DNA from: Candidatus Woesearchaeota archaeon
GTDB taxonomy: Archaea > Nanobdellota > Nanobdellia > Woesearchaeales > GW2011-AR4
Assembly (NCBI GenBank): GCA_016187495.1
Contig: JACPJP010000012.1
Location: 81,150-145,149 of the forward strand
DNA length: 64,000 bases
Direction: 5' to 3'
Shown here piece after piece: positions 4,770 through 35,468 of the stretch (the first letter of the stretch is position 1; each line of letters opens with the position of its first letter). A model generated the notes under the pieces. That model was not told where the DNA came from and did no database searches. It saw nothing but the letters and a program-made list of their open reading frames with translations. Made by a program: the position numbers and the translations under genes.

Positions 4770-5464
4770 AACTCTCTATTATAATCCCGGTGTATAACGA
4801 ATCAAAGACCATAAAAGAGCTTTTGAGAAGGATAAATAAGGTTGATTTGGGAAAGATTAAGAAGGAAATAATCCTTGTGGATGATTTTTCAACTGACGGC
4901 TCAAGGAAGGCTATTGAAAAGCTGGATAAGAAGTACATTAAGGCATTCCAGCCCAAAAATATGGGCAAAGGGGCTGCTTTGAAAGCAGGAATCAAAATTT
5001 CTTCAGGAGACTTTATTATTTTCCAGGATGCTGATTTAGAATACGACCCTAATGATTACAATAATCTGCTGAAGCCAATTCTAGGAAAAAAGACAAATGT
5101 GGTATTTGGATCAAGATTTGTAGGGGAGAAACTGGTAATCTTTGGAAAGGGCAGGACAATGCACACCTCACATTGGTTTGGCAATAAGTTTTTGACCTTT
5201 GCATTCAACCTTCTTTACGGGACTAAATTAACAGATGTAGAGCCGTGCTATAAGCTGTTTAGGAGCCATATTCTCAAGAGCATAGATGTGAAAACAAACA
5301 GGTTCGAGTATGACATAGAGCTTATGTGCAAGCTGGTCAAGAAAGGGCATAAAATAGCGCAGCTTCCTATAAAATACAGCCCAAGGAGATTTGAGGAAGG
5401 CAAGAAGATAAACTGGAAAGATGGGGTTGTTGCGTTGCTTACCATGATAAGGAACAGGGTTTAG
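4766..5464 (+). CDS. Family-2 glycosyltransferase (dolichol/polyprenol-phosphate sugar synthase-like)
   Basis: 232 aa. [29 protein letters not shown] (DxD). 4-nt overlap with the upstream gene. Confidence 0.9.
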
Positions 5465-6969
5465 GAAATCCTGTAAACTTTTGTTCCTGTTTTTTGGTTT
5501 TCATAAACTATTCCTATCTTTTTATTGTTCAATTCATTTATTATGTCGTTATTTAATTTAGCCCTGTTGTCCAGCCTGAATTTTTGGTTTACAAAGATAT
5601 AATCCGCTTTTTCTATATTCTCCTTAATGGGGCTTACTGTCTGCCTTTCTATGTTGTACGAGATGCACTGGCTCCCTGTCATGAATATGGCATTTTTTGC
5701 TGTATTGGACTTTGCCCATTTAAAATCATCATTGTAGGAATTCCATGAGGCTGCAGCTATGCTTATTTTTGCGAATGATGTAGATATAAATCCGGCAATA
5801 ATTAATAGTATAAGCATAATGAGCAACTTCCTTATTTTCCCGTGCTTTATTCTTTCCAGCCCATGGGCCCATATTAATGCTACTGCCGGGACCGCAGGCA
5901 ACATGAACCTTGTTACGGACCAGCTGGAGTTTATTACATAGAGTAATACCAATATTATATATGAACCAATCCAGACGTACAGCAGATTTTTATGATTTAG
6001 TTTTTTTGATGCAACACCCGTAACTAAAGGAATGAAGAAAATAAAAGTGCTCAGAAGCCAAATTCCGAATAAAATATTTAAGTAAGGCAGCTGCAGGAAT
6101 GACAACGTGCTTATGTTTCCATCTGGAACTCCAAAAATTCCCAAATAAAATGCTGCCAGGCCGCTGAGGCTGAAAATGTTTGAGGGATTTATTGCCCCTA
6201 CCCCGGCTTCTGCAAAAGTTTTGGCCTCATAGCCGTTAAAGATTGTGTTCATAAAAGGCCATACGGGATTTCCCAAGTAAATCCAGTTCCTTATGAACCA
6301 AATGGAGCCTATCAATGTAGGCAAAATGGAAATGATTAATATATTTTTCAATAAATATTTCTTTCCATTATAGTTTTTGAATATTATGAACAATAAAACT
6401 GGCAATATGAAAAAGCCGTTGTATTTTGTCAGTATTGTCAATCCAGCTGCTATTGCCGAGAGAATTATCCTGTTTTTTAATGCAAGATACACGCTTAGTG
6501 CTGCAAGAAATGTTATTGTTCCGTCTACATAGCTGAATACGCTATAATCTATGCTTAATGGTATAAACGTGAAGAAGAGCAAGGCATAGAATGCTGTCTT
6601 TTTGTCAAACAATATCTTTGAGATAAGGAAAAATGTTATGAGGGTTAAAGAGCCAAGTAATGGGGTAATCATCTTGATTGCAAATCCCGCAATCTCTTTG
6701 CCAAAAGCTGAAAATATCTTGTATACTAATGCCGTAAGAATATGGAAGAAAGGAGGCGCCCAGAAAGGCTCGTCCCTCCCAAAGAACTCGAACAGAGGAA
6801 AGCGGTTGTTTTCTGCTAGGTATATAGCATTTGAGAACTGCCAGCACGCATCTCCCGAGGCATGGTGCACAGATGCCAAAGAAAATCTCAATAATATTCC
6901 AAGAATTATTACAATTAAAGCATACTTTTCATATTTTTCCATTCTTCTGAATTTATCCAATAAGCTCAT
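5461..6969 (-). CDS. Polytopic GT-C glycosyltransferase, ArnT/PMT (GT39/GT83)-like
   Basis: 502 aa with more than 10 predicted TM helices. First-loop acidic motif [16 protein letters not shown]-terminal soluble domain. Confidence 0.65.
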
Positions 6970-7973
6970 TTTTTAAGAATCTTAATTACAGCATCGGCAA
7001 ATTTATCTATACTGCCCTTTTCAACTAAAATCCCGTTTTTTACAATTTCAGGATGCGAGCCTATATTAAAAGCAACGACTTTTTTTCCGCAAGCCTGCGC
7101 TTCCGCTGCCGGCAGATTAAACCCTTCCCATAATGATGCTGTAACATAAACATTGCAGGCTGCGTAGTAGCTTGGAAGGTCTTTATCATCAACAAAACCT
7201 GTAAATATGATGCCTTTATCTGCTGATTTTTTTATTTTTTTAAAATAATCATTAAAAGTAGGCTTTCCTGCAATGATAAGAGCAGCATTTGGAATCTCTT
7301 TTTTTACATTACTGAACATTTTTAATAATAAATGAACGCCCTTATGGGGGGCAATCCTTCCTACATACAACAAGACATTTTTATTTTTCAGATTGTATTT
7401 TTTTATGATTTTGTAGCTTTTTATTTTTTTATTGAACCTCTTTAGGTCTATTTTGTTGTAAGCGACTCTGCTTTTTATCTTTGATTCTTTTTCCAAAGTT
7501 TCGCTTAAATACTTGCTTACAGAATAGGCTTCATCAATGTTCTTTAGTGATATATTATTGAAAAAAAGGAAGAGCTTCATATACAATTTTTGCATAAAGC
7601 TGTCTAAAAGCCCCGTTGTGTTAATGCCATGGTCCCAGTAAATGTATTTTATGCCAAATTTCTTTTTTGCCTTATAAGCGAGCCAGTTCATCGGGTAAAA
7701 ATGGCTTATCACAATATCATAATTTTTCAGATTTTTATAATAACCCATTTTTTTGTTATCCAAGAAAAAAAATAACCTGTACAGCCTTTGCAATGCCTGG
7801 TTTTTTGGCATTCCCATGGATGCGACTTTATAGTTTCTTGGCTTTATATCTGCTTCCAATGCAATAACCGCAACTTTATTTCCTTTTTTTGCATACTCTT
7901 CTGCCTGCTGTTCAACAACACGGTCTATGCCGCTGTAATAATTAAATGTTGGGGTTAAAATTGCTATTTTCAT
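6966..7973 (-). CDS. GT-B glycosyltransferase, family 4 (Glycos_transf_1)
   Basis: 335 aa. C-terminal signature SLWEGFNLPAAEAQACGKKVVAFNIGSHPEIV (E-x7-E type). Confidence 0.85.
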   Translation of the reverse strand: MKIAILTPTFNYYSGIDRVVEQQAEEYAKKGNKVAVIALEADIKPRNYKVASMGMPKNQALQRLYRLFFFLDNKKMGYYKNLKNYDIVISHFYPMNWLAYKAKKKFGIKYIYWDHGINTTGLLDSFMQKLYMKLFLFFNNISLKNIDEAYSVSKYLSETLEKESKIKSRVAYNKIDLKRFNKKIKSYKIIKKYNLKNKNVLLYVGRIAPHKGVHLLLKMFSNVKKEIPNAALIIAGKPTFNDYFKKIKKSADKGIIFTGFVDDKDLPSYYAACNVYVTASLWEGFNLPAAEAQACGKKVVAFNIGSHPEIVKNGILVEKGSIDKFADAVIKILKK

Positions 7974-8635: not shown

Positions 8636-9352
8636 TCAAACCTTACCAGCTGAATGCTGCATTTTCAGCTTCAAGACCATAAAATACCCGTTAGCAAGCT
8701 GCTTTAACCCTAATTTTGACTTTCCTTTGGTTCTGTTTACAAATGTTATTGGTATCTCTTTGATTTTAAATTTGTTCAGATGGGCCTTGAATAATATTTC
8801 CTGAACAATAGAAGGACCTTTTGACTCTAGTTTTTCTAGTTTTATTTTTTCAAGAACTTTTCTTTTGAAGCACCTGAAGCCGGAATTGCAGTCTTTTACC
8901 TTTATTCCGAGCATTAAGGTTATGTACCAATTTGCTCCCAAAGTTATAAATTGCCTTATTAGGCCGCGGCCAACTTCCTTGCTGCCCTTTAATCTCCTTG
9001 AGCCAAGGACTAAATCAGCATCTTTTAATCCTACAATTAGGGCAGGAATGTATTTTGGGTCATGGGACATGTCAGCATCCATCTCAACAACAACATCTGC
9101 GCCATGCTTTAGGCAGTAAATAAAGCCGTCTCTGCCAGCTGAGCCGCGGCCTTTGTCTTTTTTTCTTAACAATAAATGAATGTTTTTCTTCTTTTTAGCA
9201 ATATCTTTTACAATTTTCCATGTACCATCGGGGCTGTCGTCATCCACTACGACAATATGGATATTTTTTATCTTTAAGATTAGGATTTTGTTTATTAAAA
9301 TAGCAATGTTTTCTTTTTCATTGTAGGTTGGGATCATTACGAAGGGTTTCAT
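8636..9352 (-). CDS. Family-2 glycosyltransferase, dolichol-phosphate mannose/glucose synthase (DPM1)-like
   Basis: 238 aa. VMIPTYNEKENI..VVDDDSPDGT..EMDADMSHDP. Soluble DPM1-type architecture. Confidence 0.9.
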   Translation of the reverse strand: MKPFVMIPTYNEKENIAILINKILILKIKNIHIVVVDDDSPDGTWKIVKDIAKKKKNIHLLLRKKDKGRGSAGRDGFIYCLKHGADVVVEMDADMSHDPKYIPALIVGLKDADLVLGSRRLKGSKEVGRGLIRQFITLGANWYITLMLGIKVKDCNSGFRCFKRKVLEKIKLEKLESKGPSIVQEILFKAHLNKFKIKEIPITFVNRTKGKSKLGLKQLANGYFMVLKLKMQHSAGKV

Positions 9353-9626: not shown

Positions 9627-9672
9627 TCAAATAGAAATTTAAGTGTGAACCTTGGGGTGGAAATTAAATAAA

Positions 9673-12600
9673 ATGAGATCTTGGATAGTCTTGATTTCCT
9701 TATTGCCTATATTGATTTTTATATTTGGTACGGTTTATGTACAGGCAACCACTATCGAATTAAAAAAACCAGGTAATTTTTCAATTAATAATATCTTGAG
9801 CAGAAATATTAACTTTACATTTAATTCAACTTGGAGTTTTGGAGAGTCTGACCCTACACCACATGAAAATATATCAAACTGCAGTTTGTGGATAAACGGT
9901 ACGAATCCTGCTATTGAATGGGACATTGTAAAAAATGCTAGTATAGACTCAGTAGGGGAAGATAATAAAATACTAAATGGTTCAGCAGGGCTTAGTTATA
10001 TGAATTTTACATTTGCGTCAGACGGCAACTACACATATGCTGTTTCATGTTTAAATTTTACAAATGCAAGCGTAGATTCTAAACTCGCATTTTCTTCTAA
10101 CTTCTCTTTTTTTATTGATACAACCCCGCCGACGATTGACATATTCATACCTAATAATAGCAGAATAGCTCCTAATTCGACCGTTAATATCACTGCAGAC
10201 ATATCGGATGAAACTGGATTGTTAAGCGCAAACATAACTTATAATATAAGCGGCATCTTGACAAAAGTCAATTTTACCTTATCCGGAAAAAGCGCAATAA
10301 TTCATAATGTTACGAATTTTATCGGTTCACTTGGGGATGTAATCAATGTTACAGTCTATGCCGCAGATACACAAAACAATGTAGGGCAAGATTCAACGTT
10401 GGTTACGCTGGTTGACATTCACCCACCGTCAGTTGCCGTTTCAATAAACAACACATCACCAGGAGTTAATGATATCATCAACATTTCTGCAACCATTTCA
10501 GATGAAACAGGATTGATCAGTGCAAATATAACTTACAGCATAGAAGATGTGTTAACAAAAGTGAATTTTAGTTTTTCTGGAAATATTGCAGATATAGCTA
10601 ATATTTTGGCAGCCATCCATAATGTTACTGCAATTAACGGCAGGAAGGGAGAAAAGATAAAATTTTTTGTTTATGCTACAGATGTGTATAATAATATTGG
10701 GAACAGTTCTGCTTTTGTTGTATTGCCATCTATAACATCTTCAGAAGCTTTTGGAGACCCTCAATCATTCATTGTAGCAGACTCCCAGGTGAATAAAGGA
10801 AACCCTGACACTAATGATGGAAGCGATAATAGCATAATGGTAATGACATCAAATCCTAACGAAGTCAGAGGTTACTGGCTTTTAAATATTTCAAATGTCA
10901 CTGGAACGGTAACTGATGCTACTTTCCAATGCAAGATAAATAGGCAAGGAAGCGGTGTAACTATAGAAGTATACTGGTCAAATGGAACTTTTAGCGAATC
11001 TGGAATCACATGGAATAACCAGCCTTGCGGCACAACAGAAAACTCCACTGATCTACCATGCAACCAAACAGTCTTATCAGATCATGAAGTTGATTTTGAA
11101 GCTCAAGGCACTAGAAACTTAACTTTTGACATCTTAAAAGCGGTTAAAATAGCCCATGAGCAGGTTTTTTATGATAAGCATTTAATTCTTATGATACGGC
11201 ACCAATCAGAAGCTACAATAAGCCAAGATACGCAGTTTTATTCAAAAGAAAACTTAAATCCAGAAAATAAATGCGGATTGTATATGGTAACCCAGGATTT
11301 AACCTTCCCAATAGTTAATACTTCAATAAACAACACATTACCAAGTTTTAATGACATCATAAACATTTCTGCAAACATTTCAGATGAAACACGCTTGTTA
11401 GGTGCAAATATAACCAACAATCTTAGTGGAATCTTGGCAAAGGTTAACTTTACCTTAAATGGAACTACAGCACAAATTCATGATATAACCCAAATAACAA
11501 CAGGCGCTGGCTCTGTAATTAACTTTACGGTTTATGCCATAGATGCTAATAATAATGTCAAGCAGAATTCTACTTTGATTACTGTAATTGATATTATCCC
11601 TCCAATAGTAAACGCAACGTTCAATACCACAAGCCATTTAGTAGATGACATCATCAACATATCGGCAAACATAACAGATGAAACGGAATTATTGTCAGCA
11701 AACATAACCTATAATATATCCGGAGCCTTAACTAAGATCAACTTTTCGTTGTCTGGGACAAGTGCTCAGATAAGCAACAAAACTCAAATTATCTGCGCAG
11801 AAACTTGCGTCATCAACTTTACTGTTTATGCTACAGATGCAAGCAATAATGTAAAGCAGAACTCAACATTGTTAGCTGTTGCAGATGTAACCCCTCCAGT
11901 GATTAATACAGCGTTCAACGCAACATATCCAAGAAATATAGAGGCAATTAATTTCACCGGCAATGTAACGGATGGAAATGGCCTTTTATTAGCTAACTGG
12001 ACTATAAACTTTTCTACTGGAAAGCTATTTATGAATTATTCATTGAGCGGAAATTCAGCTCAGATAAGCAACACAACAACCTTGCTAGGATTAGCAGGCG
12101 GAACCGTATTAAATTTTACTTTTTATGCTACTGATATAAGCAATAATGTGAATCAGAACGACACATTATTGACAATTTCTGATGCAATTCCGCCTATTGT
12201 TAATGCAACATTTAATGTAAGCAGTCCAACGGTAAATAGTGTAATAAATTACACTGCGAATATAACAGATGAAACTGAATTGCTTTCTGCAAATTGGACA
12301 GTTAACCTTTCTACTGAAAAAGTGCTTGCTAACTATTCGATATTAGGAACTGCGGTTCAGGTAAGTAACACTACATCATTGTCCTATTGTACTGAGACCT
12401 GCGTACTTAATTTCACAATTTATGCAACGGACACAAGCAATAATGTAAATCAAAACAGCACTTTAATAACAGTTGCAGATATAACCCCGCCAGTTGTTAA
12501 TACTACATTTAATATCACAAGCCCTGTCATAAATGGCGTTATAAACTTCTCAGGAAATATAACTGATGGGGTTGGATTATTATCCGCAAATATAACCTAC

Positions 12601-14514
12601 AACCTATCTGGAATTTTAACAAAAATAAACTTTACACTATCTGGAACAAAAGCACAAATAGGCATTGTTACAGAATTAGAAGTAGATGGGGGCAATGTAA
12701 TAAACTTTACTTTGTTCGCCACTGACACAAGCAACAATATAAGGCAAAATTCAACATTAATAACAGTAGCAGATACAAATCCGCCAGTTATCTCATTAGT
12801 ATCCCCTTCAAACAACTCAGTACAAGAAGTCGGCACTATTATAAATTTGAGCATAACTGATTATACAGATATTTTTGCTTGGTATAAAAACGAAAGCATA
12901 AATGCAACAATAAACTCTCCTTATGATATCGACACAAGCAATTGGTCAAAAGCCGAATATGAAATAACCGTTTACGCTAATGACAGCTCTGGGAATATTA
13001 ATTCACAATTCTACAGATTCATATTTGATAGCAGGCCAGTTATAAATACAACCCCTATTAATTCGACTTTGGAAGATGAGATTTATAGTTATGATGTAAA
13101 TGCAACTGACTCTGATGAAGATAAATTAAATTATTCCTTAGTATTAAATCCAACTGATATGGTTATAAACTCCAGCAATGGGATAATTAATTGGACACCT
13201 ACCAATTCGCAGGTAGGCAATCATTCTATTGTAATAGAAGTGTCTGATGGCAACTTGTCTGCAAACCAGTCTTTCAATTTAACAGTAATAAATGTAAATG
13301 ATATTCCTATCCTTAGTTTTATACCTGATATCATAGTAAATGAAACTGATTTAGTAGACATCAATGCAACTGGAAACGTTTCAGCAACAGATGTAGATGG
13401 AGATAATTTGATATATTCATATTCCCCACCTTTAAACAGTTCAGGTCAATGGCAGACTAGCTTTACAGATGCAAGAAATTACATCATAACAGTAACTGTA
13501 AATGATAGCAATGGAGGAATAGATTCACAAGAAGTTAATATTACGGTACTTGATAAAACTAAGGGAGCTAATGATACGGTAGTGGGAAACCTAAGTGATA
13601 TTAAGACTACAATACCCAACCTTGGCTTAAGAATTAACAATACGGTCTTTAATTTGAGTAAAGTTATCCTAGGAGTCAATAGAATCAATTTCACAGATAG
13701 TAATGAGACAGTAATCGAATTTGACTTTGAGTTCTCAAACACTTCAAAGTTTAATTTTCTTGATATTGAGATAAATAATACATTTTTCAATGGGAGCCAA
13801 AGCATAATAATCAAAGGAATCAATTTGACCTCGCAGGGGAGGACAAAAACCGCTTACATAAATAGAACCAATACCACTTACAATTCTGTTTGTATTAGAG
13901 ATGTTGAATTAAGTTCTGTTACTGAAATTACGTCTGATTGCAGTGGCTCTGATGAAACAAAGCTTGCATGTGATGGAGTCCCAACGAATGGCTATACCTG
14001 CGCACTTCAAGGCACGCTTTATAGAATCACGGGTTTGAGCCATTCCGGAATAAAACAGTTATCTTACACAAGAACTTCTGATAGTTCAGGCGGCGGAGGT
14101 GGAGGGGGAGGCGGGGGTGGTGGTCGTGGTGATGTTGGAGGCTTAGTAGGCTCAGGAGAATCTTACGTCTGCAATATGGATTGGGATTGTTCAGGGTGGT
14201 CAGAATGCAAAAATGGATGGGAGACGAGAGAGTGCTCTTTTGTAGAAATTGCTCAGCATACCTCAAATGAGGCATGTGCCTCTATTAATAATGTCCCGCA
14301 AAGAGCCAGAAAATGTGAGACCCGTCAAGAACAAGAGATTAGTAAAGAAGAAGAAACTGAAAGAGAAACTGTGCCTAATGAGCCTAAAGTCCCTCGAATC
14401 ACTGGCCTGGCTGTTGGATATGTAGGGGAGCCAAATAAACTTGTTGGTACAATCATAACCACGGCTATAGTTATTATTGGCGGTTTTTTTTATTATAGAT
14501 TTTTTAATTTATAG
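9673..14514 (+). CDS. Giant (about 1613 aa) sequon-saturated cell-surface protein: signal peptide, 7 tandem ~98-102-aa Ig-like repeats, DNRLRE/CBM96-like insert, cadherin-like domain, poly-Gly, Cys/Trp knot, C-terminal TM anchor
   Basis: The track ORF starts at TTG 9652; the ATG at 9673 (MRSWIVLISLLPILIFIFGTVYVQA) has a better Shine-Dalgarno motif and signal peptide. Hand count: about 115 N-X-S/T sequons. Repeats are anchored on PP(I/V)VN..INISANI(T/S)DET.LLSANITYN.SG.LTK(V/I)NF.LSG..AQI. The TWNNQP motif falls near aa 460. A cadherin-like block (YSYDVNATDSDEDKLNYSL..INWTPT..) follows, then G12 and a C-terminal helix TIITTAIVIIGGFFYY. Confidence 0.9.
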   Translation: MRSWIVLISLLPILIFIFGTVYVQATTIELKKPGNFSINNILSRNINFTFNSTWSFGESDPTPHENISNCSLWINGTNPAIEWDIVKNASIDSVGEDNKILNGSAGLSYMNFTFASDGNYTYAVSCLNFTNASVDSKLAFSSNFSFFIDTTPPTIDIFIPNNSRIAPNSTVNITADISDETGLLSANITYNISGILTKVNFTLSGKSAIIHNVTNFIGSLGDVINVTVYAADTQNNVGQDSTLVTLVDIHPPSVAVSINNTSPGVNDIINISATISDETGLISANITYSIEDVLTKVNFSFSGNIADIANILAAIHNVTAINGRKGEKIKFFVYATDVYNNIGNSSAFVVLPSITSSEAFGDPQSFIVADSQVNKGNPDTNDGSDNSIMVMTSNPNEVRGYWLLNISNVTGTVTDATFQCKINRQGSGVTIEVYWSNGTFSESGITWNNQPCGTTENSTDLPCNQTVLSDHEVDFEAQGTRNLTFDILKAVKIAHEQVFYDKHLILMIRHQSEATISQDTQFYSKENLNPENKCGLYMVTQDLTFPIVNTSINNTLPSFNDIINISANISDETRLLGANITNNLSGILAKVNFTLNGTTAQIHDITQITTGAGSVINFTVYAIDANNNVKQNSTLITVIDIIPPIVNATFNTTSHLVDDIINISANITDETELLSANITYNISGALTKINFSLSGTSAQISNKTQIICAETCVINFTVYATDASNNVKQNSTLLAVADVTPPVINTAFNATYPRNIEAINFTGNVTDGNGLLLANWTINFSTGKLFMNYSLSGNSAQISNTTTLLGLAGGTVLNFTFYATDISNNVNQNDTLLTISDAIPPIVNATFNVSSPTVNSVINYTANITDETELLSANWTVNLSTEKVLANYSILGTAVQVSNTTSLSYCTETCVLNFTIYATDTSNNVNQNSTLITVADITPPVVNTTFNITSPVINGVINFSGNITDGVGLLSANITYNLSGILTKINFTLSGTKAQIGIVTELEVDGGNVINFTLFATDTSNNIRQNSTLITVADTNPPVISLVSPSNNSVQEVGTIINLSITDYTDIFAWYKNESINATINSPYDIDTSNWSKAEYEITVYANDSSGNINSQFYRFIFDSRPVINTTPINSTLEDEIYSYDVNATDSDEDKLNYSLVLNPTDMVINSSNGIINWTPTNSQVGNHSIVIEVSDGNLSANQSFNLTVINVNDIPILSFIPDIIVNETDLVDINATGNVSATDVDGDNLIYSYSPPLNSSGQWQTSFTDARNYIITVTVNDSNGGIDSQEVNITVLDKTKGANDTVVGNLSDIKTTIPNLGLRINNTVFNLSKVILGVNRINFTDSNETVIEFDFEFSNTSKFNFLDIEINNTFFNGSQSIIIKGINLTSQGRTKTAYINRTNTTYNSVCIRDVELSSVTEITSDCSGSDETKLACDGVPTNGYTCALQGTLYRITGLSHSGIKQLSYTRTSDSSGGGGGGGGGGGGRGDVGGLVGSGESYVCNMDWDCSGWSECKNGWETRECSFVEIAQHTSNEACASINNVPQRARKCETRQEQEISKEEETERETVPNEPKVPRITGLAVGYVGEPNKLVGTIITTAIVIIGGFFYYRFFNL
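10126..10725 (+). repeat. Coding tandem repeat array A (2 units, about 297-306 bp each) inside the giant surface-protein gene
   Basis: Units begin at the Pro-Pro codons 10126 and 10423 (TTPPTIDIF / IHPPSVAVS). Confidence 0.8.
11305..12780 (+). repeat. Coding tandem repeat array B (5 units, period 294-297 bp) inside the giant surface-protein gene
   Basis: Unit anchors are at 11305 (FP), then 11599, 11893, 12190 and 12487 (PP), closing at PP 12781. The units are diverged in sequence but keep exact phase. Confidence 0.85.
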
Positions 14515-15511
14515 TTTTAACAGCATTTGCAATCTTATCAATATCCCATTCTGCCGGGTAAGTGCATTTTGTCTTGTAAGAACAATAATCTTTCCCTTTC
14601 CCAACAATTTTTATTCCCCTGCCATAATTTTCGATTTCTGCTGCACTAGTTGGGTAGTAGAAAGATACAATATTCTTCTTCAATGCAGTCCCAATATGCA
14701 ATGCCAAGCTATCGGATGTTACCAAAATATTGCATAAATTAACCAAAGAAGCGAATTCCATCAATGAGTTATCACAACCAGCGTCAATAATCTTGCCTTT
14801 TGCTGTTTTTTTTATCTTTTCATTCCTTTCTTTTTCCTCTGGGCCACCAAACAATAATAATTTTGCATTATCTATACTTTCATTTAACTTGTCAATCAAT
14901 TCGGCAGTTTCTTCTATGCTTAATTTTTTGTCCTGCCATCTTCCTCCTGCGCCAGTGTTTATGCCAATGATTTCATCATTGCTTTTCATATTATTCTTTT
15001 TTGCAAAATTTTCGCCAAAATTTATTTCATCCTTTGTTAAACCTAATATCGGCTCTTGTTTTTTGTAATCCAAATCAAGAATTTCATACATTATTTGCTG
15101 ATATGTTTTTTTGTTTTTGGCTTTTAATTCATCTGCCTTTTTCTTGCCAAACTTTGAGATTAAGCCAATGTCAAACCATAATGAGGAATTTTGCGTATAA
15201 ACTCTTTTTCCATTGTCCAAATAAGCGCCAATAAGCTCTTTATGGCTGATTTTTGCGGCTAGAGTGCATGCCTCATTGTCATCGTCCAAACTAATTATTA
15301 AGTCATATTCGTTATTTTCTATTTTTACAATATCATTGTCGATTAAAAATAGTTTATTAATGAAATTATTATTTTTTAAGACATCAAAGGATTCTTTCTT
15401 TGTGAGCCAGTCTATTCTGCAATTTTTGTATTTTTCCTTTAGCCCCGAAAGAATGGAAGTAGTCCTGATTACATCCCCTATTGCGCCTAATTTTATTATT
15501 AGTATGTCCAT
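14504..15511 (-). CDS. GT9 family glycosyltransferase (heptosyltransferase-like)
   Basis: 335 aa. N-terminal MDILIIKLGAIGDVIRTTSIL; C-terminal ..LVTSDSLALHIGTAL.., the GT9 pattern. The 3' end overlaps the giant surface-protein gene by 11 nt (convergent). Confidence 0.75.
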   Translation of the reverse strand: MDILIIKLGAIGDVIRTTSILSGLKEKYKNCRIDWLTKKESFDVLKNNNFINKLFLIDNDIVKIENNEYDLIISLDDDNEACTLAAKISHKELIGAYLDNGKRVYTQNSSLWFDIGLISKFGKKKADELKAKNKKTYQQIMYEILDLDYKKQEPILGLTKDEINFGENFAKKNNMKSNDEIIGINTGAGGRWQDKKLSIEETAELIDKLNESIDNAKLLLFGGPEEKERNEKIKKTAKGKIIDAGCDNSLMEFASLVNLCNILVTSDSLALHIGTALKKNIVSFYYPTSAAEIENYGRGIKIVGKGKDYCSYKTKCTYPAEWDIDKIANAVKTIN

Positions 15512-15652: not shown

Positions 15653-17311
15653 GTGGGTGTGATTAAGCAATTGTTTTTGGTATTATTGATAGGAATGATT
15701 TTTCTTTATGGCTGTATGGGCAAGGATATTGAAATATCCGAACCATTGGGAAAGATTACTGGCGAGGTTGTAAAGGATGCTGATGAACCTATTTTTGATA
15801 TCAGCATTGAAGAAGAATTGCAGGAAGAAACGCAGGAAGCTATAACTGAGAAAGATAAAATTGACACAATTAATGATGTAAACTATGATGATGCAAACCC
15901 TAAATCCCATGTTATTTATGTGCGGGATGGAGAAGGATTTGATCCTAAAGAGATAATAATCAATAGCGGAGATAAGGTAAGCTGGAAGAATGAAGGCCAT
16001 AGGGGCATGATAATATTGGTATTTAAGGATGGAAAACAATATTTGCAGCAGAATGCTGTCAATTCCGGAGATGAGTTTACACACCAGTTTAATGAAACCG
16101 GCTCGTACGATATTTATTGGAATATAATTGGCGGACCGATAACGGGAAAATTAATTGTGCGAGAAAGGTCGTTAGATGTTATTGGCGAACCTTTAGAAAA
16201 ACCAGCAAAAAAATATGATGCAAAAAAATCGGAATACTATACCGAAGAGCAACTCAAGGAAGACTTAACAAGCATCTTTGGCTCATCAAGGTATAATATC
16301 AGCAATTTTACAAGAGACCCTTCCTACCCCGGTTATATTAGGTCAAGTGAATTAAAATATCACGTTATCCACACAATTAAAGACAAGCAAATAAAATCTT
16401 TTAAAGATTTTTGTGAAATTTATTGTGGCAGCAATTGGGATGGCTGGCAGTACTATACAAATATGACCCTATACAGTTTATATGAACCCTTACTCGGACC
16501 AGGAGATTTTCCAGACGAGAAAGAGTATAATGACTATAGAAAAGAGAGGGTATTAGCGAACCATACCAAAAAGGAAAAAGTGCATGAAGTTGAAAATGGC
16601 AAAGTCTTAGAATATAAATTCTGGCTTTTACAGCAAGATTTTTTTGGAAATTTTCAATCTAATCTTTTGGGCTACCTATTAGTATACAAGGTTTACTGCA
16701 CCCCAAATATGACTGTGCTTATAAGGCCCCGATGGGAAGATTTCTCGGTAAGAAAAGGCGGCAAAATCCCTGAACTCATTGTTAATTGGGAACTCGAGGA
16801 TGATCGCGTTCGTGAAGAAGCATTGGAAAAAGCCAATGAAATTTTAAAGGCATGCCCGGTGGAAAAAGAATTTTTTGACAATTATGATGCTAAACCATAC
16901 TTTGAATCTGATTTGCGAGGCTATTATTGGAAATTATATTACTCTAATAAACTAAATTTGACAAGGAATATTGAAATAGGCGCGGAAAAATTATATAAGG
17001 ATCAAGATGTGTATGTATTAAAGAATATGACTCTATCCTTTACAAATAATTATTTTTCTCCTCTTTATGATGTTGGGCTGAAGGTTATAGTAAAAGCTGA
17101 TGACGAGAAGAACGAATATGATTATTATGATAATGAGAATTTTCGTTATGAATTTAAATCCGGTGAAAAAATAACTAAAACTTTGAAGCTAAATGAAATC
17201 AAATTTTTACATAATATTACAGTAATGGCAACCTTATATCTGCTTGATGAAGATGTTGGCATCAGACCTCTTGAGGTTACATTTACCAAGTCTGATTTGG
17301 GCTTTGAATAG
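15653..17311 (+). CDS. Secreted/lipid-anchored hypothetical protein with a copper-ligand-less cupredoxin-like domain
   Basis: 552 aa. Signal with lipobox-like LYGC. The block FDPKEIIINSGDKVSWKNEG..GDEFTHQFNETGSYDIYWNIIGGPITGKLIV follows plastocyanin-type topology but lacks the Cys/His/Met ligands. The rest is unassignable. Confidence 0.6.
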   Translation: MGVIKQLFLVLLIGMIFLYGCMGKDIEISEPLGKITGEVVKDADEPIFDISIEEELQEETQEAITEKDKIDTINDVNYDDANPKSHVIYVRDGEGFDPKEIIINSGDKVSWKNEGHRGMIILVFKDGKQYLQQNAVNSGDEFTHQFNETGSYDIYWNIIGGPITGKLIVRERSLDVIGEPLEKPAKKYDAKKSEYYTEEQLKEDLTSIFGSSRYNISNFTRDPSYPGYIRSSELKYHVIHTIKDKQIKSFKDFCEIYCGSNWDGWQYYTNMTLYSLYEPLLGPGDFPDEKEYNDYRKERVLANHTKKEKVHEVENGKVLEYKFWLLQQDFFGNFQSNLLGYLLVYKVYCTPNMTVLIRPRWEDFSVRKGGKIPELIVNWELEDDRVREEALEKANEILKACPVEKEFFDNYDAKPYFESDLRGYYWKLYYSNKLNLTRNIEIGAEKLYKDQDVYVLKNMTLSFTNNYFSPLYDVGLKVIVKADDEKNEYDYYDNENFRYEFKSGEKITKTLKLNEIKFLHNITVMATLYLLDEDVGIRPLEVTFTKSDLGFE

Positions 17312-17374: not shown

Positions 17375-18988
17375 ATGGAAGTCAATAAAAGGCACCTTGA
17401 GGCAGCAGCATTTATTGCAGTTTACCTGTTTATTCTTTATCTGTGGACGCTGCCTTTCCAGGACAATCAAGTGCCTTATGGGGAATTTGATGCTATATCC
17501 CATTGGGAGCTTGCAGACTTTATTGAGCAGCTTGACAGGACTTTTATTTATTTGCCTCCTTTTCTGGATTATTCTTACGGTGGCGATAACCAGTTCAAGC
17601 CGCATACCTTATGGTACCATCCACCTTTCCATACAGATTTAGCAATAATCTCAGCTTTCGCTCCAGGAAGGGTTGTCCCGATTTTTTTGACAAATGCAAT
17701 TTTTGCAACAGCAATCTTAATTTCAGTTTTCTTTGTCATCAGAAGATTGTATGGATTTCTTCCTGCTATCCTATCATCGTTGCTGCTTGGCTTTTCCATG
17801 AGAGACCTAATGCCTTACCTTTGGGGACAATGGCCGGAGAGGTTTGGCTACGCTTTTACCCCTTTGATCTTATACTGTTTTTATACCTATTATACTACTT
17901 ATACTAAAGAAAAAAGCAGTCCAATATACCTGCATATAACTGGGATTTTACTCGCTATTGAATTAATGGTACACCCGCTTTCATTTTTTCATTCCCTTGT
18001 GGGCATTTTTGTTTTGGGAATAGCTTTGCTGATAAAAACGAGAAAATTGCCTATGAATTGGAAGCATATAGGAATAACGATAGTTTTGTTCCTGATCCTT
18101 CTAGCTATATTCCCCTACCAAACTGGAAATGTAATAAAGTCTTTCAGCGAGGATTCAAAAAGAGAGCATGAATACCCTTCCTTGTCAAGACTGTTCAATT
18201 GGGCTCCTGACCCAAAGGATTTTATTGGTTCTGTTCCCGAATCTTATTTCTCTTTTAGGGAAATGAATGGAATCTGGACGCTGCCTTTTTTGCTTATGGG
18301 GATTCTCTTTTTGGTTGTCAGGAGAGAAAACCGCGATATACTCCTGTTAGCATGGCTGATTAGCCTGTATTTGATCCTGCATAGGGATTTCATAGGAAAA
18401 TTTTTCTTTTTGCATAGGTCTTTATCCGCTACTGCGCATATTTTTGCTCCCATAACGGTTATAGGGGCGTTGTCAATACACTCATTAATTAAGCTGCCCA
18501 ATAACTATAGCAGATTTTTGAAATATGGTGCTGCAGTTTTAGTTGTGGCTTTGGCTTTTATGTATAATTTTCCACAGGCGCAATCTACGCTCCAGAATGC
18601 TTATGATAGCCCATTGATAAGACTGAATCCTGCTCAAATAGAAGTAAGCCAGTGGCTTAAGAACAATTTAAATGAAAATCAGAATGTTTCAGTTATAGGA
18701 CCTCCTTCCGAAATAATGCAGAAGGTATGGTGGATGGCGTCCTTTTCCCATAGAACAAGTTTCTTTTTTGAGGGCTTCTTGACATGGAAGACATTTAAAG
18801 AAAACAGGGAAGAAACGATAAAATATCATCTGCTTAATGACTATATTGTTTTTGACTATTCAGATATTGCGTTATTGTCTGACGGGAGCTTGGTTGAGCA
18901 ATGGCTGGAATTTGAGAAGCAAAACATGGGAAATCACACATTGCTTTACAACAAGGACAATATAAGGGTGTATAAATATGAAGGATGA
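17375..18988 (+). CDS. Uncharacterised polytopic membrane protein, GT-C-like (paralogue of 20498-22159)
   Basis: 537 aa. Multi-TM N-terminal two thirds plus a soluble C-terminal domain. Blocks shared with the paralogue: YGEFDAISHW / YGASDAFQHQ, YHPPF..LAII / IYPPV..LAIM, LWGQWPERF / LWGHWPSVL, and VSQWLKNN / LSWIRDNT. Confidence 0.7.
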   Translation: MEVNKRHLEAAAFIAVYLFILYLWTLPFQDNQVPYGEFDAISHWELADFIEQLDRTFIYLPPFLDYSYGGDNQFKPHTLWYHPPFHTDLAIISAFAPGRVVPIFLTNAIFATAILISVFFVIRRLYGFLPAILSSLLLGFSMRDLMPYLWGQWPERFGYAFTPLILYCFYTYYTTYTKEKSSPIYLHITGILLAIELMVHPLSFFHSLVGIFVLGIALLIKTRKLPMNWKHIGITIVLFLILLAIFPYQTGNVIKSFSEDSKREHEYPSLSRLFNWAPDPKDFIGSVPESYFSFREMNGIWTLPFLLMGILFLVVRRENRDILLLAWLISLYLILHRDFIGKFFFLHRSLSATAHIFAPITVIGALSIHSLIKLPNNYSRFLKYGAAVLVVALAFMYNFPQAQSTLQNAYDSPLIRLNPAQIEVSQWLKNNLNENQNVSVIGPPSEIMQKVWWMASFSHRTSFFFEGFLTWKTFKENREETIKYHLLNDYIVFDYSDIALLSDGSLVEQWLEFEKQNMGNHTLLYNKDNIRVYKYEG

Positions 18989-30807: not shown

Positions 30808-30868
30808 AAATATCACCTCTTATAATATAAACATATTAGCATATATTTATGGGTAATGGTAAGATCTC

Positions 30869-30885
30869 TGATGGGTAGTTTTTGA
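30869..30885. repeat. Terminal inverted repeat of the IS (upstream end relative to the transposase)
   Basis: TGATGGGTAGTTTTTGA, the exact reverse complement of 29358-29374. Confidence 0.8.
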
Positions 30886-30951
30886 CATATCCCATTTCGG
30901 GGGTGTGATCAAGTAAAAGCTTTAGCGTCACTAAATACCTTTCACTTACAG

Positions 30952-32370: not shown

Positions 32371-32376
32371 TTTAGG

Positions 32377-34983: not shown

Positions 34984-35466
34984 TTAATTGTTATAAACTT
35001 TTATTGTCCTATTTATGAAGTCCGTAGTTGAGTAACCCTTAACTTTCCGAATCAAAACAATTTTCCCATTATTTTTTTCCACAGCATCCTTTTCAATTAC
35101 CTGGCTAATATCATAATCGCCACCTTTTACATGAAAATCTGGCTTTATAATACCAAGAATCTTTATAGGATTTTCCTCGTTAAATACTGCAACATAATCA
35201 ACGCATTCCAATGCTGCAAGGGCTTCTGCCCTGTCATTTTCATTGTTTAACGGCCTTTTAGGGCCCTTTATTTTTTTTGTAGAGGAATCCGAGTTTATAG
35301 CCACTATGAGTGTATCTCCTAATTTTTTTGCTTCATGTAGGTATCTTATATGACCAATATGCAGAATATCAAAAACACCGTTTGTAGTAACTATTTTTTT
35401 GTTTTGGGCTTTTAGTTCTGCTACGATCCTTTTCAATTCATTAACATTTTTTATTTTTTGTGGCAT
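34984..35466 (-). CDS. hldC: D-beta-D-heptose 1-phosphate adenylyltransferase (RfaE domain II-type cytidylyltransferase-fold NTase)
   Basis: 160 aa. TTNGVFDILHIGHIRYLHEAKKLGDTLIVAINSDSS..KGPKRP..VKGGDY is near-collinear with the C-terminal half of E. coli HldE. Confidence 0.85.
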   Translation of the reverse strand: MPQKIKNVNELKRIVAELKAQNKKIVTTNGVFDILHIGHIRYLHEAKKLGDTLIVAINSDSSTKKIKGPKRPLNNENDRAEALAALECVDYVAVFNEENPIKILGIIKPDFHVKGGDYDISQVIEKDAVEKNNGKIVLIRKVKGYSTTDFINRTIKVYNN

Positions 35467-35468
35467 TT

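What the first reader, a model, noticed from the sequence alone, without database searches (positions are those of the whole stretch)
14504..15511. GT9 heptosyltransferase-like gene overlapping the 3' end of the giant surface-protein gene: possible protein heptosylation
Seen: a GT9-type gene converges on the 1.6-kaa repeat protein and overlaps it by 11 nt. Established: GT9 enzymes normally heptosylate the lipid A-Kdo core, which archaea lack. A GT9 subgroup (the Aah/TibC BAHT enzymes) instead heptosylates Ser residues of repetitive autotransporter adhesins encoded next door. Inference: the pairing of a repeat adhesin-like protein with an adjacent GT9 and an ADP-heptose operon 20 kb away mirrors the AIDA-I/Aah logic. 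It may be an archaeal protein or glycan heptosylation system.
Basis: partly seen in the sequence, partly recalled or inferred. Interest (0 to 1): 0.65.

Follow-up and report, generated by a model that had tools for sequence, protein, structure and literature searches.

The report
Archaeal GT9 heptosyltransferase in glycan island
The gene is a real, highly conserved family-9 glycosyltransferase of a Woesearchaeota archaeon, but it looks like one step in a conserved lipid-linked surface-glycan pathway that includes ADP-heptose synthesis and the N-glycosylation enzyme AglB, not a TibC/Aah-type enzyme that puts heptose directly on the neighbouring giant protein.

Summary
A 335-aa GT9 gene (14504-15511, minus) converges on a 1620-aa repeat surface-protein gene with an 11-nt overlap, and ADP-heptose genes lie 19.5 kb away.

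The BAHT (Aah/TibC) analogy fails every test I could run:
- NCBI's BAHT model scores TibC at 613 bits and gives no hit to this protein.
- BLASTP, hhalign, PDB sequence searches and Foldseek all miss TibC. The fold is canonical WaaC/WaaF-like and lacks the BAHT N-terminal barrel.
- The genes are convergent, not an operon.
- The giant's repeats are Ig-like beta-sandwiches, not beta-helix.
- In 18 of 25 orthologous loci, GT9a is followed directly by a DPM-synthase-like GT2, then GT4 and a PMT_2 GT-C. The surface-protein gene is a patchy insertion at that junction.

The whole region is one conserved Woesearchaeal island: AglB-GT2-DUF2304-GT9b-cupin-HldD-HldA-GmhB-HldC ... GT9a-GT2-GT4-GT-C. GT9a keeps WaaC's catalytic base and heptose/ADP contacts but not its lipid A/Kdo-binding residues. 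The giant has 116 N-X-S/T sequons against about 40 expected.

Most likely GT9a is a cytoplasmic heptosyltransferase acting on a lipid-linked glycan, which AglB later transfers to surface proteins. It is a new variant of a known kind and moderately interesting.

The parts
14504..15511 (-). GT9a: 335-aa cytoplasmic GT-B glycosyltransferase of family 9, a putative ADP-heptose-dependent heptosyltransferase
   Evidence: Pfam PF01075 E=6e-17. AF2 model pLDDT 88.9. Foldseek: 3TOV TMq 0.75, WaaF 0.68, WaaC ~0.63. D13, K195, E226, D267, S268 and H272 correspond to the WaaC catalytic and donor residues and are invariant (H272 in 22 of 23) in the aligned orthologs. No TM segment or signal peptide. More than 120 clusters at 65-81% identity in Woesearchaeota/Nanoarchaeota.
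9652..14514 (+). Giant surface protein (1620 aa): signal/TM, seven ~100-aa Ig-like repeats, He_PIG/Big_9 domain, Gly-rich linker, Cys-rich module, C-terminal TM anchor. Probable heavily N-glycosylated AglB substrate
   Evidence: 116 N-X-S/T sequons against 39.7+-5.3 in 2000 shuffles, maximum 59. Repeat model pLDDT 86, a seven-strand beta-sandwich matching the D. radiodurans S-layer HPI protein, PKD, CARDB and GbpA domains. Ortholog in L116: 52% identity over 725 aa.
14504..14514 (.). 11-nt overlap of the two convergent 3' ends
   Evidence: Other carriers have 6-10 bp gaps at the same junction, so this is tight packing and not a coupling signal.
8636..9352 (-). DPM-synthase-like GT2 (238 aa), the conserved immediate downstream partner of GT9a in relatives
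   Evidence: P. furiosus dolichol-P-mannose synthase 5MLZ E=1.2e-32. 57-87% identical and 0-130 bp after GT9a in 17 of the 18 non-carrier lineages, 667 bp in the other.
6966..7973 (-). GT4 (335 aa), third gene of the conserved GT9a-GT2-GT4-GT-C module
   Evidence: Pfam Glycos_transf_1/Glyco_transf_4. Synteny. Generic GT4 by PDB search.
5461..6969 (-). PMT_2-type GT-C membrane glycosyltransferase (502 aa), fourth gene of the module
   Evidence: Pfam PMT_2 E=9e-8. About 10 TM-like segments. Synteny.
17375..18988 (+). DUF6541 polytopic membrane protein (GT-C-like), the conserved divergent upstream neighbour of GT9a
   Evidence: Pfam DUF6541. 35-73% identical, and 82-360 bp upstream of GT9a in most of the relatives where it is seen.
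15653..17311 (+). 552-aa secreted or lipoprotein-like ORF lying between GT9a and DUF6541, absent at this spot in most relatives
34984..37894 (-). ADP-heptose biosynthesis genes hldD-hldA-gmhB-hldC
   Evidence: NCBIfam: TIGR02198 377>345, TIGR02199 189.8>181.5, heptose_epim 265.5 (cutoff 274.6), GmhB 155 (cutoff 178). The same cluster is syntenic with GT9a and GT9b in L114/L115, L116/L117, L118 and L119.
38485..38838 (-). Cupin-type sugar(-phosphate) isomerase-like gene, conserved immediately upstream of hldD. Candidate substitute for the missing GmhA
   Evidence: Pfam Cupin_2 with weak MannoseP_isomer/Lyx_isomer. Same position in L117, L118 and L119. 72% identity to the L117 copy. No GmhA in the window.
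42493..43641 (-). GT9b: second GT9 (382 aa, WaaF-like), in the conserved block AglB-GT2-DUF2304-GT9b
   Evidence: Pfam E=1e-31. TIGR02195 107 bits against a cutoff of 134.6. Same block in L118 and L119. GT9a-GT2-GT9b-like genes are contiguous in L010 and L011.
43641..47835 (-). DUF2304, GT2 and AglB/STT3 oligosaccharyltransferase (1047 aa, WWDFG motif)
58236..61166 (-). Second AglB/STT3 paralogue (976 aa, WWDFG motif)

Best explanation
GT9a is a cytoplasmic, inverting GT-B glycosyltransferase that most likely transfers heptose from ADP-heptose onto a membrane-anchored, lipid-linked saccharide (dolichyl-phosphate-type carrier). It is one step of a surface-glycan pathway encoded by a ~45-kb island that is conserved across Woesearchaeota: AglB-GT2-DUF2304-GT9b-cupin-HldD-HldA-GmhB-HldC ... 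GT-C proteins ... GT9a-DPMS-like GT2-GT4-PMT_2 GT-C. The finished glycan is flipped and, most plausibly, transferred by AglB to N-X-S/T sequons of exported surface proteins such as the neighbouring 1620-aa protein. That protein's gene is a facultative insertion between GT9a and its conserved operon partner, so it is a probable end-user of the pathway and not a dedicated direct substrate of GT9a. Shown: family, fold, residue conservation, synteny, sequon excess. Inferred: heptose as donor, a lipid-linked acceptor, and N-glycan as the destination.
For: GT9 family and canonical WaaC/WaaF-like fold. WaaC catalytic base D13 and the ADP/heptose contacts K192, E222, D261, T262 and H266 are conserved as D13, K195, E226, D267, S268 and H272 in the 23 aligned orthologs (H272 in 22 of 23) (residue roles from bioRxiv 10.1101/2021.06.16.448588). 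WaaC's lipid A/Kdo-binding residues R60, R63, K98 and R120 are not conserved. ADP-heptose genes pass or nearly pass equivalog cutoffs. They lie on the same contig and in the same syntenic island as GT9a or GT9b in at least five other assemblies. More distant GT9a homologs sit directly beside gmhA/gmhB/hldC or hldA (L048, L052, L085, L017). HldA, like GT9a, is widespread at 63-87% identity in Woesearchaeota. GT9a is followed directly by a DPMS-like GT2, then GT4 and a PMT_2 GT-C, in 18 of 25 orthologous loci, and the GT9a-GT2 pair persists down to 47% identity. GT9a has no TM segment or signal peptide. Clade-specific residues (N133, Y137, R191, W192 near-invariant; W112, F113, K130 in most) are shared with bacterial relatives that sit in polysaccharide clusters containing GT2, GT4 and UbiA genes. 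That argues for a chemically generic acceptor rather than one protein. Two AglB genes with WWDFG motifs are in the island. The giant has 116 sequons against 39.7+-5.3 expected, and other carriers' proteins also show a ~2-fold excess. A heptose in an archaeal N-glycan has a precedent in Thermoplasma acidophilum (PMC11407970).
Against: There is no biochemical evidence: donor and acceptor are both inferred. GT9 is not exclusively a heptosyltransferase family. SIS-type GmhA is absent from the window, so the first step of the heptose pathway is unaccounted for unless the conserved cupin replaces it. GT9a's own sub-operon (DPMS-like GT2 and PMT_2 GT-C) could serve a pathway other than AglB N-glycosylation. 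The gene nearest AglB is GT9b, not GT9a. A surface-protein gene recurs next to GT9a in about 28% of lineages, more than expected for a random insertion site, so some functional link to surface proteins exists. The NJ tree has no support values.
Confidence: 0.55

Rival explanations
1. One reading: GT9a is a BAHT-like enzyme that O-heptosylates Ser/Thr of the adjacent giant repeat protein in the cytoplasm before export.
For: GT9a abuts a repeat-rich surface-protein gene. A convergent surface-protein gene recurs at this junction in 6 of 24 other orthologous loci, and one of them (L116) is a true ortholog of the giant. An ADP-heptose pathway is present. The giant is 21% Ser+Thr.
Against: TIGR04414 gives no hit, against 613 bits for TibC. 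There is no similarity to TibC by BLASTP, hhalign, phmmer, profile search or Foldseek. There is no N-terminal beta-barrel, and the N-lobe is a normal six-stranded Rossmann lobe. The genes are convergent, whereas tibC-tibA is a same-strand operon. 18 of 25 lineages keep a 64-74% identical GT9a with no adjacent surface-protein gene, and carriers are scattered in the tree. Most adjacent proteins share only a C-terminal module, not the repeats; only the L116 ortholog shares the repeat region. The repeats are Ig-like beta-sandwiches, not beta-helix. The sequon excess points to N-linked glycosylation.
Confidence: 0.05
2. GT9a heptosylates a membrane glycolipid or lipoglycan rather than an N-glycan precursor. 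This would be an LPS-inner-core-like or LM/LAM-like glycoconjugate anchored on archaeal lipid. GT9a and GT4 would act at the cytoplasmic face, and the DPMS-like GT2 would feed the many GT-C enzymes that extend the glycan outside.
For: Characterised LPS-type GT9 enzymes act on glycolipids (established knowledge). GT9a's own operon is GT9-DPMS-GT4-PMT_2 and is flanked by further GT-C-like proteins (DUF6541, YfhO-like, 553-aa polytopic proteins). This resembles the mycobacterial logic of PimA/PimB, Ppm1 and GT-C enzymes (from my own knowledge). GT9a conservation of 65-81% across the lineage is higher than usual for variable surface-glycan GTs. The gene directly beside AglB is GT9b, not GT9a.
Against: No lipid-anchor-specific gene was identified. 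GT9a and GT9b are contiguous with one GT2 between them in L010 and L011, which suggests a single pathway. AglB and sequon-rich proteins are in the same island. Lipoglycans are not documented in DPANN, and no literature hits were found.
Confidence: 0.2
3. GT9a uses a nucleotide sugar other than ADP-heptose, and the heptose pathway serves only GT9b or another enzyme.
For: CAZy GT9 also lists non-heptosyl activities (from my own knowledge). GT9a is below all heptosyltransferase equivalog cutoffs. G263 of WaaC is Leu in GT9a, and M242 is Asn. The heptose genes are closer to GT9b than to GT9a.
Against: The heptose-hydroxyl contacts K192, D261 and H266 and the ribose contact E222 are all conserved. 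Distant GT9a-clade members lie directly next to gmhA/gmhB/hldC or hldA. GT9a and hldA co-occur on the same contigs.
Confidence: 0.12

Closest known systems
LPS inner-core heptosyltransferases WaaC (HepI) and WaaF (HepII), and the uncharacterised Veillonella GT9 (PDB 3TOV)
   Same: Same Pfam/CAZy family and the same two-Rossmann GT-B fold: TMq 0.75 to 3TOV, 0.68 to WaaF, about 0.63 to WaaC. Same catalytic Asp13 and the same ADP/heptose-contacting residues. The protein is cytoplasmic and the acceptor is probably lipid-anchored.
   Different: It scores below all WaaC/WaaF/WaaQ equivalog cutoffs and forms a separate clade in the tree. The lipid A/Kdo-binding basic residues are missing, and the clade has its own signature residues, of which N133, Y137, R191 and W192 are near-invariant. 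The host is an archaeon, which has no lipid A or Kdo. The operon partners are a DPMS-like GT2, a GT4 and a GT-C rather than waa genes, and no WaaA adjacency was found in any locus.
BAHT family: Aah and TibC autotransporter O-heptosyltransferases (TIGR04414; PDB structures from Yao et al. 2014)
   Same: ADP-heptose-dependent GT-B enzymes with a G-D catalytic motif (TibC D110 aligns with D13). In this genome, the gene lies next to a large repeat-containing surface-protein gene.
   Different: There is no detectable sequence or profile similarity, and TibC is absent from the top 50 structural matches. The 97-residue N-terminal beta-barrel is missing and no hairpin thumb or 4-Cys iron finger could be recognised. 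The genes are convergent, not an operon. The adjacency is patchy. The neighbouring protein is built of Ig-like beta-sandwiches rather than a beta-helix.
Archaeal AglB-dependent N-glycosylation (agl) gene clusters, and the heptose-containing N-glycan of Thermoplasma acidophilum
   Same: AglB with a WWDxG motif, Dol-P-sugar synthase-type GT2s, soluble GTs and sugar-nucleotide biosynthesis genes are clustered together, with sequon-rich surface proteins as acceptors. Heptose occurs in one archaeal N-glycan (PMC11407970).
   Different: No characterised agl pathway uses a GT9 enzyme or an ADP-heptose (HldA/HldC) route, as far as I could find. The organism is an uncultured DPANN archaeon with no glycan data.

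Membership tests
Glycosyltransferase family 9 (Pfam PF01075 / CAZy GT9) | Significant match to the family HMM above the gathering threshold | tested here: met
   62.2 bits against a cutoff of 22, E=6e-17.
Glycosyltransferase family 9 (Pfam PF01075 / CAZy GT9) | GT-B fold superimposable on WaaC/WaaF | tested here: met
   AF2 pLDDT 88.9. Foldseek: 3TOV E=4e-16 TMq 0.75, WaaF TMq 0.68, WaaC TMq ~0.63.
Glycosyltransferase family 9 (Pfam PF01075 / CAZy GT9) | Catalytic base (WaaC Asp13) and ADP-heptose contacts (K192, E222, D261, T262, H266) | tested here: met
   D13, K195, E226, D267, S268 and H272 are conserved in the 23 aligned orthologs (H272 in 22 of 23).
Glycosyltransferase family 9 (Pfam PF01075 / CAZy GT9) | Heptosyl transfer from ADP-heptose demonstrated | not testable with these tools
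   Requires an enzyme assay.
LPS heptosyltransferases WaaC / WaaF / WaaQ (NCBIfam equivalogs) | Score above the curated equivalog cutoff | tested here: not met
   63.7 against 185.3 (HepI), 55.9 against 134.6 (HepII), 57.2 against 170.2 (HepIII).
LPS heptosyltransferases WaaC / WaaF / WaaQ (NCBIfam equivalogs) | Basic residues binding lipid A phosphates and Kdo (WaaC R60, R63, K98, R120) | tested here: not met
   They align to gap, gap, E80 and G101 in GT9a.
LPS heptosyltransferases WaaC / WaaF / WaaQ (NCBIfam equivalogs) | Genomic association with the Kdo/lipid A pathway (e.g. WaaA) | tested here: not met
   No WaaA homolog in any of the loci held at that point (tblastn), and none among the window's Pfam-annotated ORFs.
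BAHT (Aah/TibC autotransporter O-heptosyltransferases) | Match to TIGR04414 hepto_Aah_TibC, or sequence similarity to TibC | tested here: not met
   TibC scores 613 bits. GT9a and GT9b have no hit at E<=10. BLASTP E=1.6. hhalign probability 0.1%. The PDB profile search finds no TibC at E<=10.
BAHT (Aah/TibC autotransporter O-heptosyltransferases) | N-terminal ~97-residue beta-barrel and an atypical four-stranded N-lobe | tested here: not met
   GT9a starts at beta-1 (residues 2-6) with D13. The model has six N-lobe strands with flanking helices. Feature definition from PMC4358343.
BAHT (Aah/TibC autotransporter O-heptosyltransferases) | Beta-hairpin thumb and 4-Cys iron-finger insertion; dodecamer | tested here: inconclusive
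   No CxxC...C...C insertion and no alignable region. GT9a does have five invariant Cys residues (C82, C246, C260, C310, C316). Their spatial arrangement could not be inspected because model coordinates are not exposed. Oligomeric state is not testable.
BAHT (Aah/TibC autotransporter O-heptosyltransferases) | Co-transcribed with, and conserved next to, a beta-helical autotransporter substrate | tested here: not met
   The genes are convergent, whereas tibC-tibA are on the same strand. Adjacency is present in only 7 of 25 orthologous loci. The repeat fold is an Ig-like beta-sandwich.
Archaeal AglB-dependent N-glycosylation pathway | AglB/STT3 with a WWDxG motif in the same conserved gene neighbourhood | tested here: met
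   Two AglB genes, both with WWDFG. The AglB-GT2-DUF2304-GT9b-heptose block is conserved in L118 and L119.
Archaeal AglB-dependent N-glycosylation pathway | Sequon-enriched exported acceptor proteins | tested here: met
   116 sequons against 39.7+-5.3 expected in the giant. Cytoplasmic proteins of the window have 0-1 per 100 aa.
Archaeal AglB-dependent N-glycosylation pathway | The GT9a product is part of the lipid-linked oligosaccharide transferred by AglB | not testable with these tools
   Needs glycan structure analysis or genetics.

The most novel reading that the evidence does not exclude
Woesearchaeota (DPANN archaea) use a bacterial-type ADP-heptose pathway and two GT9 heptosyltransferases to build a heptose-containing, lipid-anchored envelope glycoconjugate. 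This would be an archaeal analogue of the LPS inner core, or a lipoglycan, extended outside the cell by the many GT-C enzymes of the island. GT9a would be the first GT9 with a non-lipid-A lipid acceptor, and a cupin isomerase would replace GmhA.
Probability: 0.15. Interest if true: 0.75.

Novelty: new variant of a known kind. Interest (0 to 1): 0.4.

Why it matters
If the inference is right, a whole order of uncultured DPANN archaea makes ADP-heptose, a metabolite regarded as a hallmark of Gram-negative bacteria. It would incorporate heptose into its surface glycans through a distinct, highly conserved GT9 clade whose acceptor is not lipid A-Kdo.

This gives archaeal glycobiology concrete candidate genes for a heptose-containing N-glycan or lipoglycan, and it extends the acceptor range of GT9. 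It also documents that an entire ~45-kb AglB-centred glycosylation island is conserved in Woesearchaeota. That island is useful for predicting the cell-surface chemistry involved in host attachment.

It does not reveal a new protein-modification mechanism. The attractive BAHT analogy is not supported.

Tried and rejected
1. BAHT homology. I tried phmmer and a family profile against PDB, NCBIfam TIGR04414 with TibC as positive control, BLASTP and hhalign against TibC, and Foldseek against PDB. All were negative.

2. LPS context. tblastn with E. coli WaaA, WaaL, WaaG, WaaP and CoaD against all loci found no WaaA anywhere, and waaG matches only to generic GT4 genes.

3. GmhA in the window. tblastn with E. 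coli GmhA found nothing at E<=1.

4. PDB sequence searches for the PMT_2 protein and the DUF6541 protein found nothing usable. The GT4 gave only generic hits.

5. Literature searches for DPANN/Woesearchaeota plus heptose/heptosyltransferase, and for archaea plus heptosyltransferase plus HGT, returned nothing relevant.

6. Metal site.

7. Monophyly of giant-gene carriers. The NJ tree shows carriers scattered among non-carriers. The tree has no bootstrap support, so repeated gain and repeated loss cannot be distinguished.

8. L007. The 876 bp downstream of GT9a encode surface-protein-like sequence in two possible frames or orientations. I counted it as an ambiguous carrier.

9. Archaeal promoters and terminators were not scanned, because the available tool covers only sigma-70 and intrinsic-terminator consensus.

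Full report
**1. Observation**

The window contains ORF 14504..15511 on the minus strand (335 aa, ATG start). It also contains ORF 9652..14514 on the plus strand (1620 aa). Their 3' ends converge and share 11 nt.

The 335-aa protein ("GT9a") matches Pfam Glyco_transf_9 at E=6e-17, above the gathering cutoff. It hits the WaaC/WaaF/WaaQ NCBIfam models at 1e-15 to 1e-17 but far below their equivalog cutoffs.

An identical protein in the public collection is named "Candidatus Woesearchaeota archaeon" and lies on a 150-kb contig. The window is AT-rich, at 30-41% GC.

- HldA (36013-36996) and HldC (34984-35466) pass their equivalog cutoffs.
- GmhB-like (35469-36026) and HldD-like (36977-37894) score just below theirs.
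- A SIS-type GmhA is not in the window.

**2. The wider window**

Pfam scans of all large ORFs show that the whole 64 kb is a glycosylation island. It holds:
- two AglB/STT3 genes, both with the WWDFG catalytic motif;
- a second GT9 ("GT9b", 42493-43641);
- many GT2 and GT4 genes, and several polytopic GT-C-like proteins (PMT_2, DUF6541, YfhO-like);
- sugar-nucleotide modifying enzymes and methyltransferases;
- a few obvious insertions, namely a Tn5-like transposase, a LAGLIDADG ORF and DUF1643.

**3. Is GT9a a BAHT (Aah/TibC-type) enzyme?**

I retrieved TibC from ETEC H10407 (L112:3641-4861, 406 aa) as a positive control. The results were:
- NCBI's curated BAHT model TIGR04414 scores TibC at 613 bits and gives no hit at E<=10 for GT9a or GT9b.
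- BLASTP of GT9a against TibC gives E=1.6. Its only noteworthy alignment puts the G-D catalytic motif of TibC residues 100-112 on GT9a residues 3-15, which shows that TibC has about 97 extra N-terminal residues.
- hhalign of the GT9a family alignment against the single TibC sequence gives probability 0.1%.
- A single-sequence search at E<=1 and a family-profile search at E<=10 against PDB chains find 3TOV, WaaF and WaaC but never TibC.
- The AlphaFold model (pLDDT 88.9) is closest to 3TOV (TMq 0.75), WaaF (0.68) and WaaC (about 0.63). No TibC chain is in the top 50.

Yao et al. [quoted passage not shown] - a four-stranded atypical N-lobe;
- a beta-hairpin thumb;
- a 4-Cys iron finger;
- a dodecameric assembly.

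GT9a starts directly at beta-1 and has a six-stranded Rossmann N-lobe with flanking helices.

tibC and tibA are on the same strand and overlap by 8 nt, as an operon. Here the two genes are convergent and cannot be co-transcribed.

A rough NJ tree of 105 GT9 sequences puts GT9a in a large clade of its own, made of archaeal orthologs plus bacterial relatives at 32-58% identity. That clade is separate from WaaC, WaaF, WaaQ and WaaU, and very far from TibC (no support values).

**4. Is the pairing with the giant protein conserved?**

GT9a is unusually conserved. More than 120 database clusters are 65-81% identical to it, and all those that carry a source name are labelled Woesearchaeota, Nanoarchaeota/Nanoarchaeia or simply 'archaeon'.

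I collected 119 loci and probed them with the window's proteins. Among orthologs at 64% identity or more with enough downstream sequence:
- 18 distinct lineages have GT9a followed directly by a 238-aa GT2 that is 68-87% identical to window 8636-9352. The gap is 0-130 bp, or 667 bp in one case. Where the contig extends far enough, a GT4 and then a PMT_2-type GT-C follow.
- 6 lineages (L012, L033, L036, L041, L116, and ambiguously L007) plus the window have a convergent ORF of very variable size (at least 104, 501, 875, 1671, 1928 and 1620 aa) wedged into that junction. Where sequence allows, the GT2 resumes behind it.

Carriers are interleaved with non-carriers in the tree. The window's sister L030 and L033's sister L032 both lack the insertion.

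The inserted proteins share only C-terminal parts with the window's giant: about 420 aa at 35% identity in L041, and a ~77-aa Cys-rich module in L036 and L012. The exception is L116, which is a true ortholog with 52% identity over 725 aa.

So the adjacency is a recurrent but facultative insertion of a surface-protein gene into the conserved GT9a-GT2 junction. It is not a conserved enzyme-substrate pair.

**5. What the giant protein is**

It has an N-terminal signal/TM segment and a C-terminal TM anchor. It also has seven ~100-aa repeats and a He_PIG/Big_9 domain.

The repeat, modelled from its seven internal copies (pLDDT 86), is a seven-stranded beta-sandwich. It matches the D. radiodurans S-layer HPI protein and PKD, CARDB, GbpA and RbmA domains. 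It is not the 19-residue-repeat beta-helix that BAHTs recognise.

The protein has 116 N-X-S/T sequons. Composition-preserving shuffles give 39.7+-5.3, with a maximum of 59 in 2000. Cytoplasmic proteins of the window have 0-1 per 100 aa. The orthologous or analogous proteins in L116, L041 and L036 also have about twice the expected number.

This is the signature of an AglB substrate.

**6. What GT9a belongs to**

The GT2 partner is a dolichol-phosphate-mannose-synthase-type enzyme (P. furiosus DPMS 5MLZ, E=1.2e-32, catalytic domain only).

Look-ups of HldA homologs, which are also widespread in Woesearchaeota at 63-87% identity, show one conserved order in L118 and L119:
FAD-reductase, AglB, GT2, DUF2304, GT9b, (NTP-transferase), cupin, HldD, HldA, GmhB, HldC, GT2; L118 then continues with a second GT2, a methyltransferase, an epimerase, a YfhO-like protein, a ~550-aa membrane protein and DUF6541, whereas L119 diverges after that GT2.

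In L114/L115 and L116/L117 this continues into GT9a; L114 goes on into GT2-GT4-PMT_2, while L116 has the giant ORF after GT9a. The window has the same order, read from 49150 down to 5461, interrupted by a few insertions.

GT9a, GT9b, the ADP-heptose genes and AglB are therefore parts of one conserved Woesearchaeal island. Two further observations fit this:
- More distant GT9a-clade members lie directly beside gmhA/gmhB/hldC (L048), hldA (L052, L017) or hldC (L085).
- In L010 and L011, GT9a, the DPMS-like GT2 and a GT9b-like gene are contiguous.

**7. Residue-level evidence**

In a MAFFT alignment with E. coli WaaC, WaaF and WaaQ, GT9a keeps:
- the catalytic base D13;
- the residues that contact ADP-heptose in WaaC: K192 as K195, E222 as E226, D261 as D267, T262 as S268 and H266 as H272.

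The residue roles come from bioRxiv 10.1101/2021.06.16.448588. All are invariant, or in the case of H272 nearly invariant (22 of 23), in the 23 aligned orthologs.

The WaaC residues that bind lipid A phosphates and Kdo (R60, R63, K98, R120) correspond to a gap, a gap, E80 and G101.

The clade instead has its own conserved residues. N133, Y137, R191 and W192 are near-invariant, and W112, F113 and K130 are conserved in most members. These are shared with its bacterial members from Ignavibacteriaceae, Bacteroidota and Verrucomicrobiota.

Those bacterial genes lie in polysaccharide-type clusters containing UDP-sugar dehydrogenase, oxidoreductase and acetyltransferase genes, GT2, GT4, a UbiA prenyltransferase and a deacetylase. 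They are not beside autotransporters or Kdo/lipid A genes.

GT9a has no TM segment or signal peptide, so it acts in the cytoplasm, where ADP-heptose is made.

**8. Best explanation (confidence 0.55)**

GT9a is a cytoplasmic heptosyltransferase that adds heptose from ADP-heptose to a lipid-linked (dolichyl-phosphate-type) saccharide. It works within the island's surface-glycan pathway. The glycan is flipped and, most plausibly, transferred by AglB onto sequons of exported proteins such as the giant.

- Shown: family, fold, conserved donor-side residues, divergent acceptor side, island synteny, sequon excess.
- Inferred: the donor identity, the lipid-linked acceptor and the N-glycan destination.

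A heptose in an archaeal N-glycan has a precedent in Thermoplasma acidophilum (PMC11407970).

**9. Rivals**

- (a) A glycolipid or lipoglycan acceptor, giving an LPS-core-like or LM/LAM-like product: 0.2. This is supported by GT9a's own DPMS/GT4/GT-C operon and its unusually high conservation.
- (b) A donor other than ADP-heptose: 0.12.
- (c) BAHT-like direct O-heptosylation of the giant: 0.05.

**10. Novelty and interest**

NCBI already annotates these proteins as "glycosyltransferase family 9 protein", so the gene is not new. I found no paper linking Woesearchaeota or DPANN archaea to heptosyltransferases or ADP-heptose.

The GT9a clade, with a conserved donor site, a new acceptor-side signature and archaeal dolichol-type operon partners, is best described as a new variant of a known kind. 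Interest is moderate (0.4). The striking BAHT hypothesis is not supported. What remains is a testable prediction of heptose-containing surface glycans in a major uncultured archaeal lineage.

**Caveats**

- Taxon labels of some MAG contigs ("Methanosarcinales", "uncultured bacterium") are as given in the records and may reflect mis-binning.
- The tree is distance-based and has no support values.
- Counts of carriers depend on contig ends.
- All functional statements are inferences from sequence.

Noticed in passing
window 38485-38838 (-); L117:2195-2560; L118:8741-9106; L119:8732-9091: A ~120-aa cupin with weak mannose-6-P/lyxose isomerase similarity sits immediately upstream of hldD in four Woesearchaeota genomes (72% identity between the window and L117). 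A SIS-type GmhA is absent from the window. It may be a non-orthologous sedoheptulose-7-phosphate isomerase that completes the ADP-heptose pathway.
   Followed up: partly
window 42493-43641 (-): A second GT9 (GT9b, WaaF-like, 107 bits on TIGR02195) lies in a conserved AglB-GT2-DUF2304-GT9b block. It has Glu49 instead of Asp at the catalytic-base position.
   Followed up: partly
window 29452-34827: A Tn5/IS4-like transposase (29452-30816), an MBOAT O-acyltransferase (30952-32370), a DltD-like protein (32377-33576) and a 383-aa ORF lie between hldC and the GT2 that directly follows hldC in L115, L118 and L119. This looks like a mobile or horizontally acquired glycan O-acylation module inserted into the island.
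   Followed up: partly
window 38825-39655 (-) and 37901-38488 (-): A free-standing LAGLIDADG homing-endonuclease-like ORF lies between the cupin and the NTP-transferase gene, and a DUF1643 gene lies between the cupin and hldD. Both are absent at these positions in L117-L119.
   Followed up: no
window 44692-47835 (-) and 58236-61166 (-): There are two AglB/STT3 paralogues in one window, both with an intact WWDFG motif. This suggests two oligosaccharyltransferases, possibly with different glycan or acceptor specificity.
   Followed up: partly
window 49226-49819 (+): A second HldC-like adenylyltransferase (TIGR02199 118.6 bits, below cutoff) lies next to a GT4 and an FAD-dependent (geranylgeranyl-reductase-like) oxidoreductase. 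It may activate a different sugar-1-phosphate.
   Followed up: no
window 27542-28159 (+); L117:7400-8002: A ferredoxin (4Fe-4S) fused to a PterinBD-DUF4346 domain is conserved inside the glycosylation island in two genomes. Its role there is unexplained.
   Followed up: no
window 14504-15511 (protein residues C82, C246, C260, C310, C316): Five cysteines are invariant across 40 GT9a family members, and C260, C310 and C316 are largely conserved in bacterial clade members. C310-x5-C316 lies in a low-confidence C-terminal loop. A structural metal site is possible but could not be checked.
   Followed up: partly
GT9a model vs PDB: The GT9a model matches subunits of plant chloroplast NDH-PSI supercomplexes (9grx_1, 7wff_a, 7f9o_6) at TMq ~0.63. 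These are GT9-fold proteins serving as structural subunits.
   Followed up: no
window 15653-17311 (+): A 552-aa ORF with a lipobox-like N-terminus (…LYGC) is inserted between GT9a and the DUF6541 gene, which directly flanks GT9a in most relatives. Both flanks of GT9a in this genome have therefore acquired exported-protein genes.
   Followed up: no
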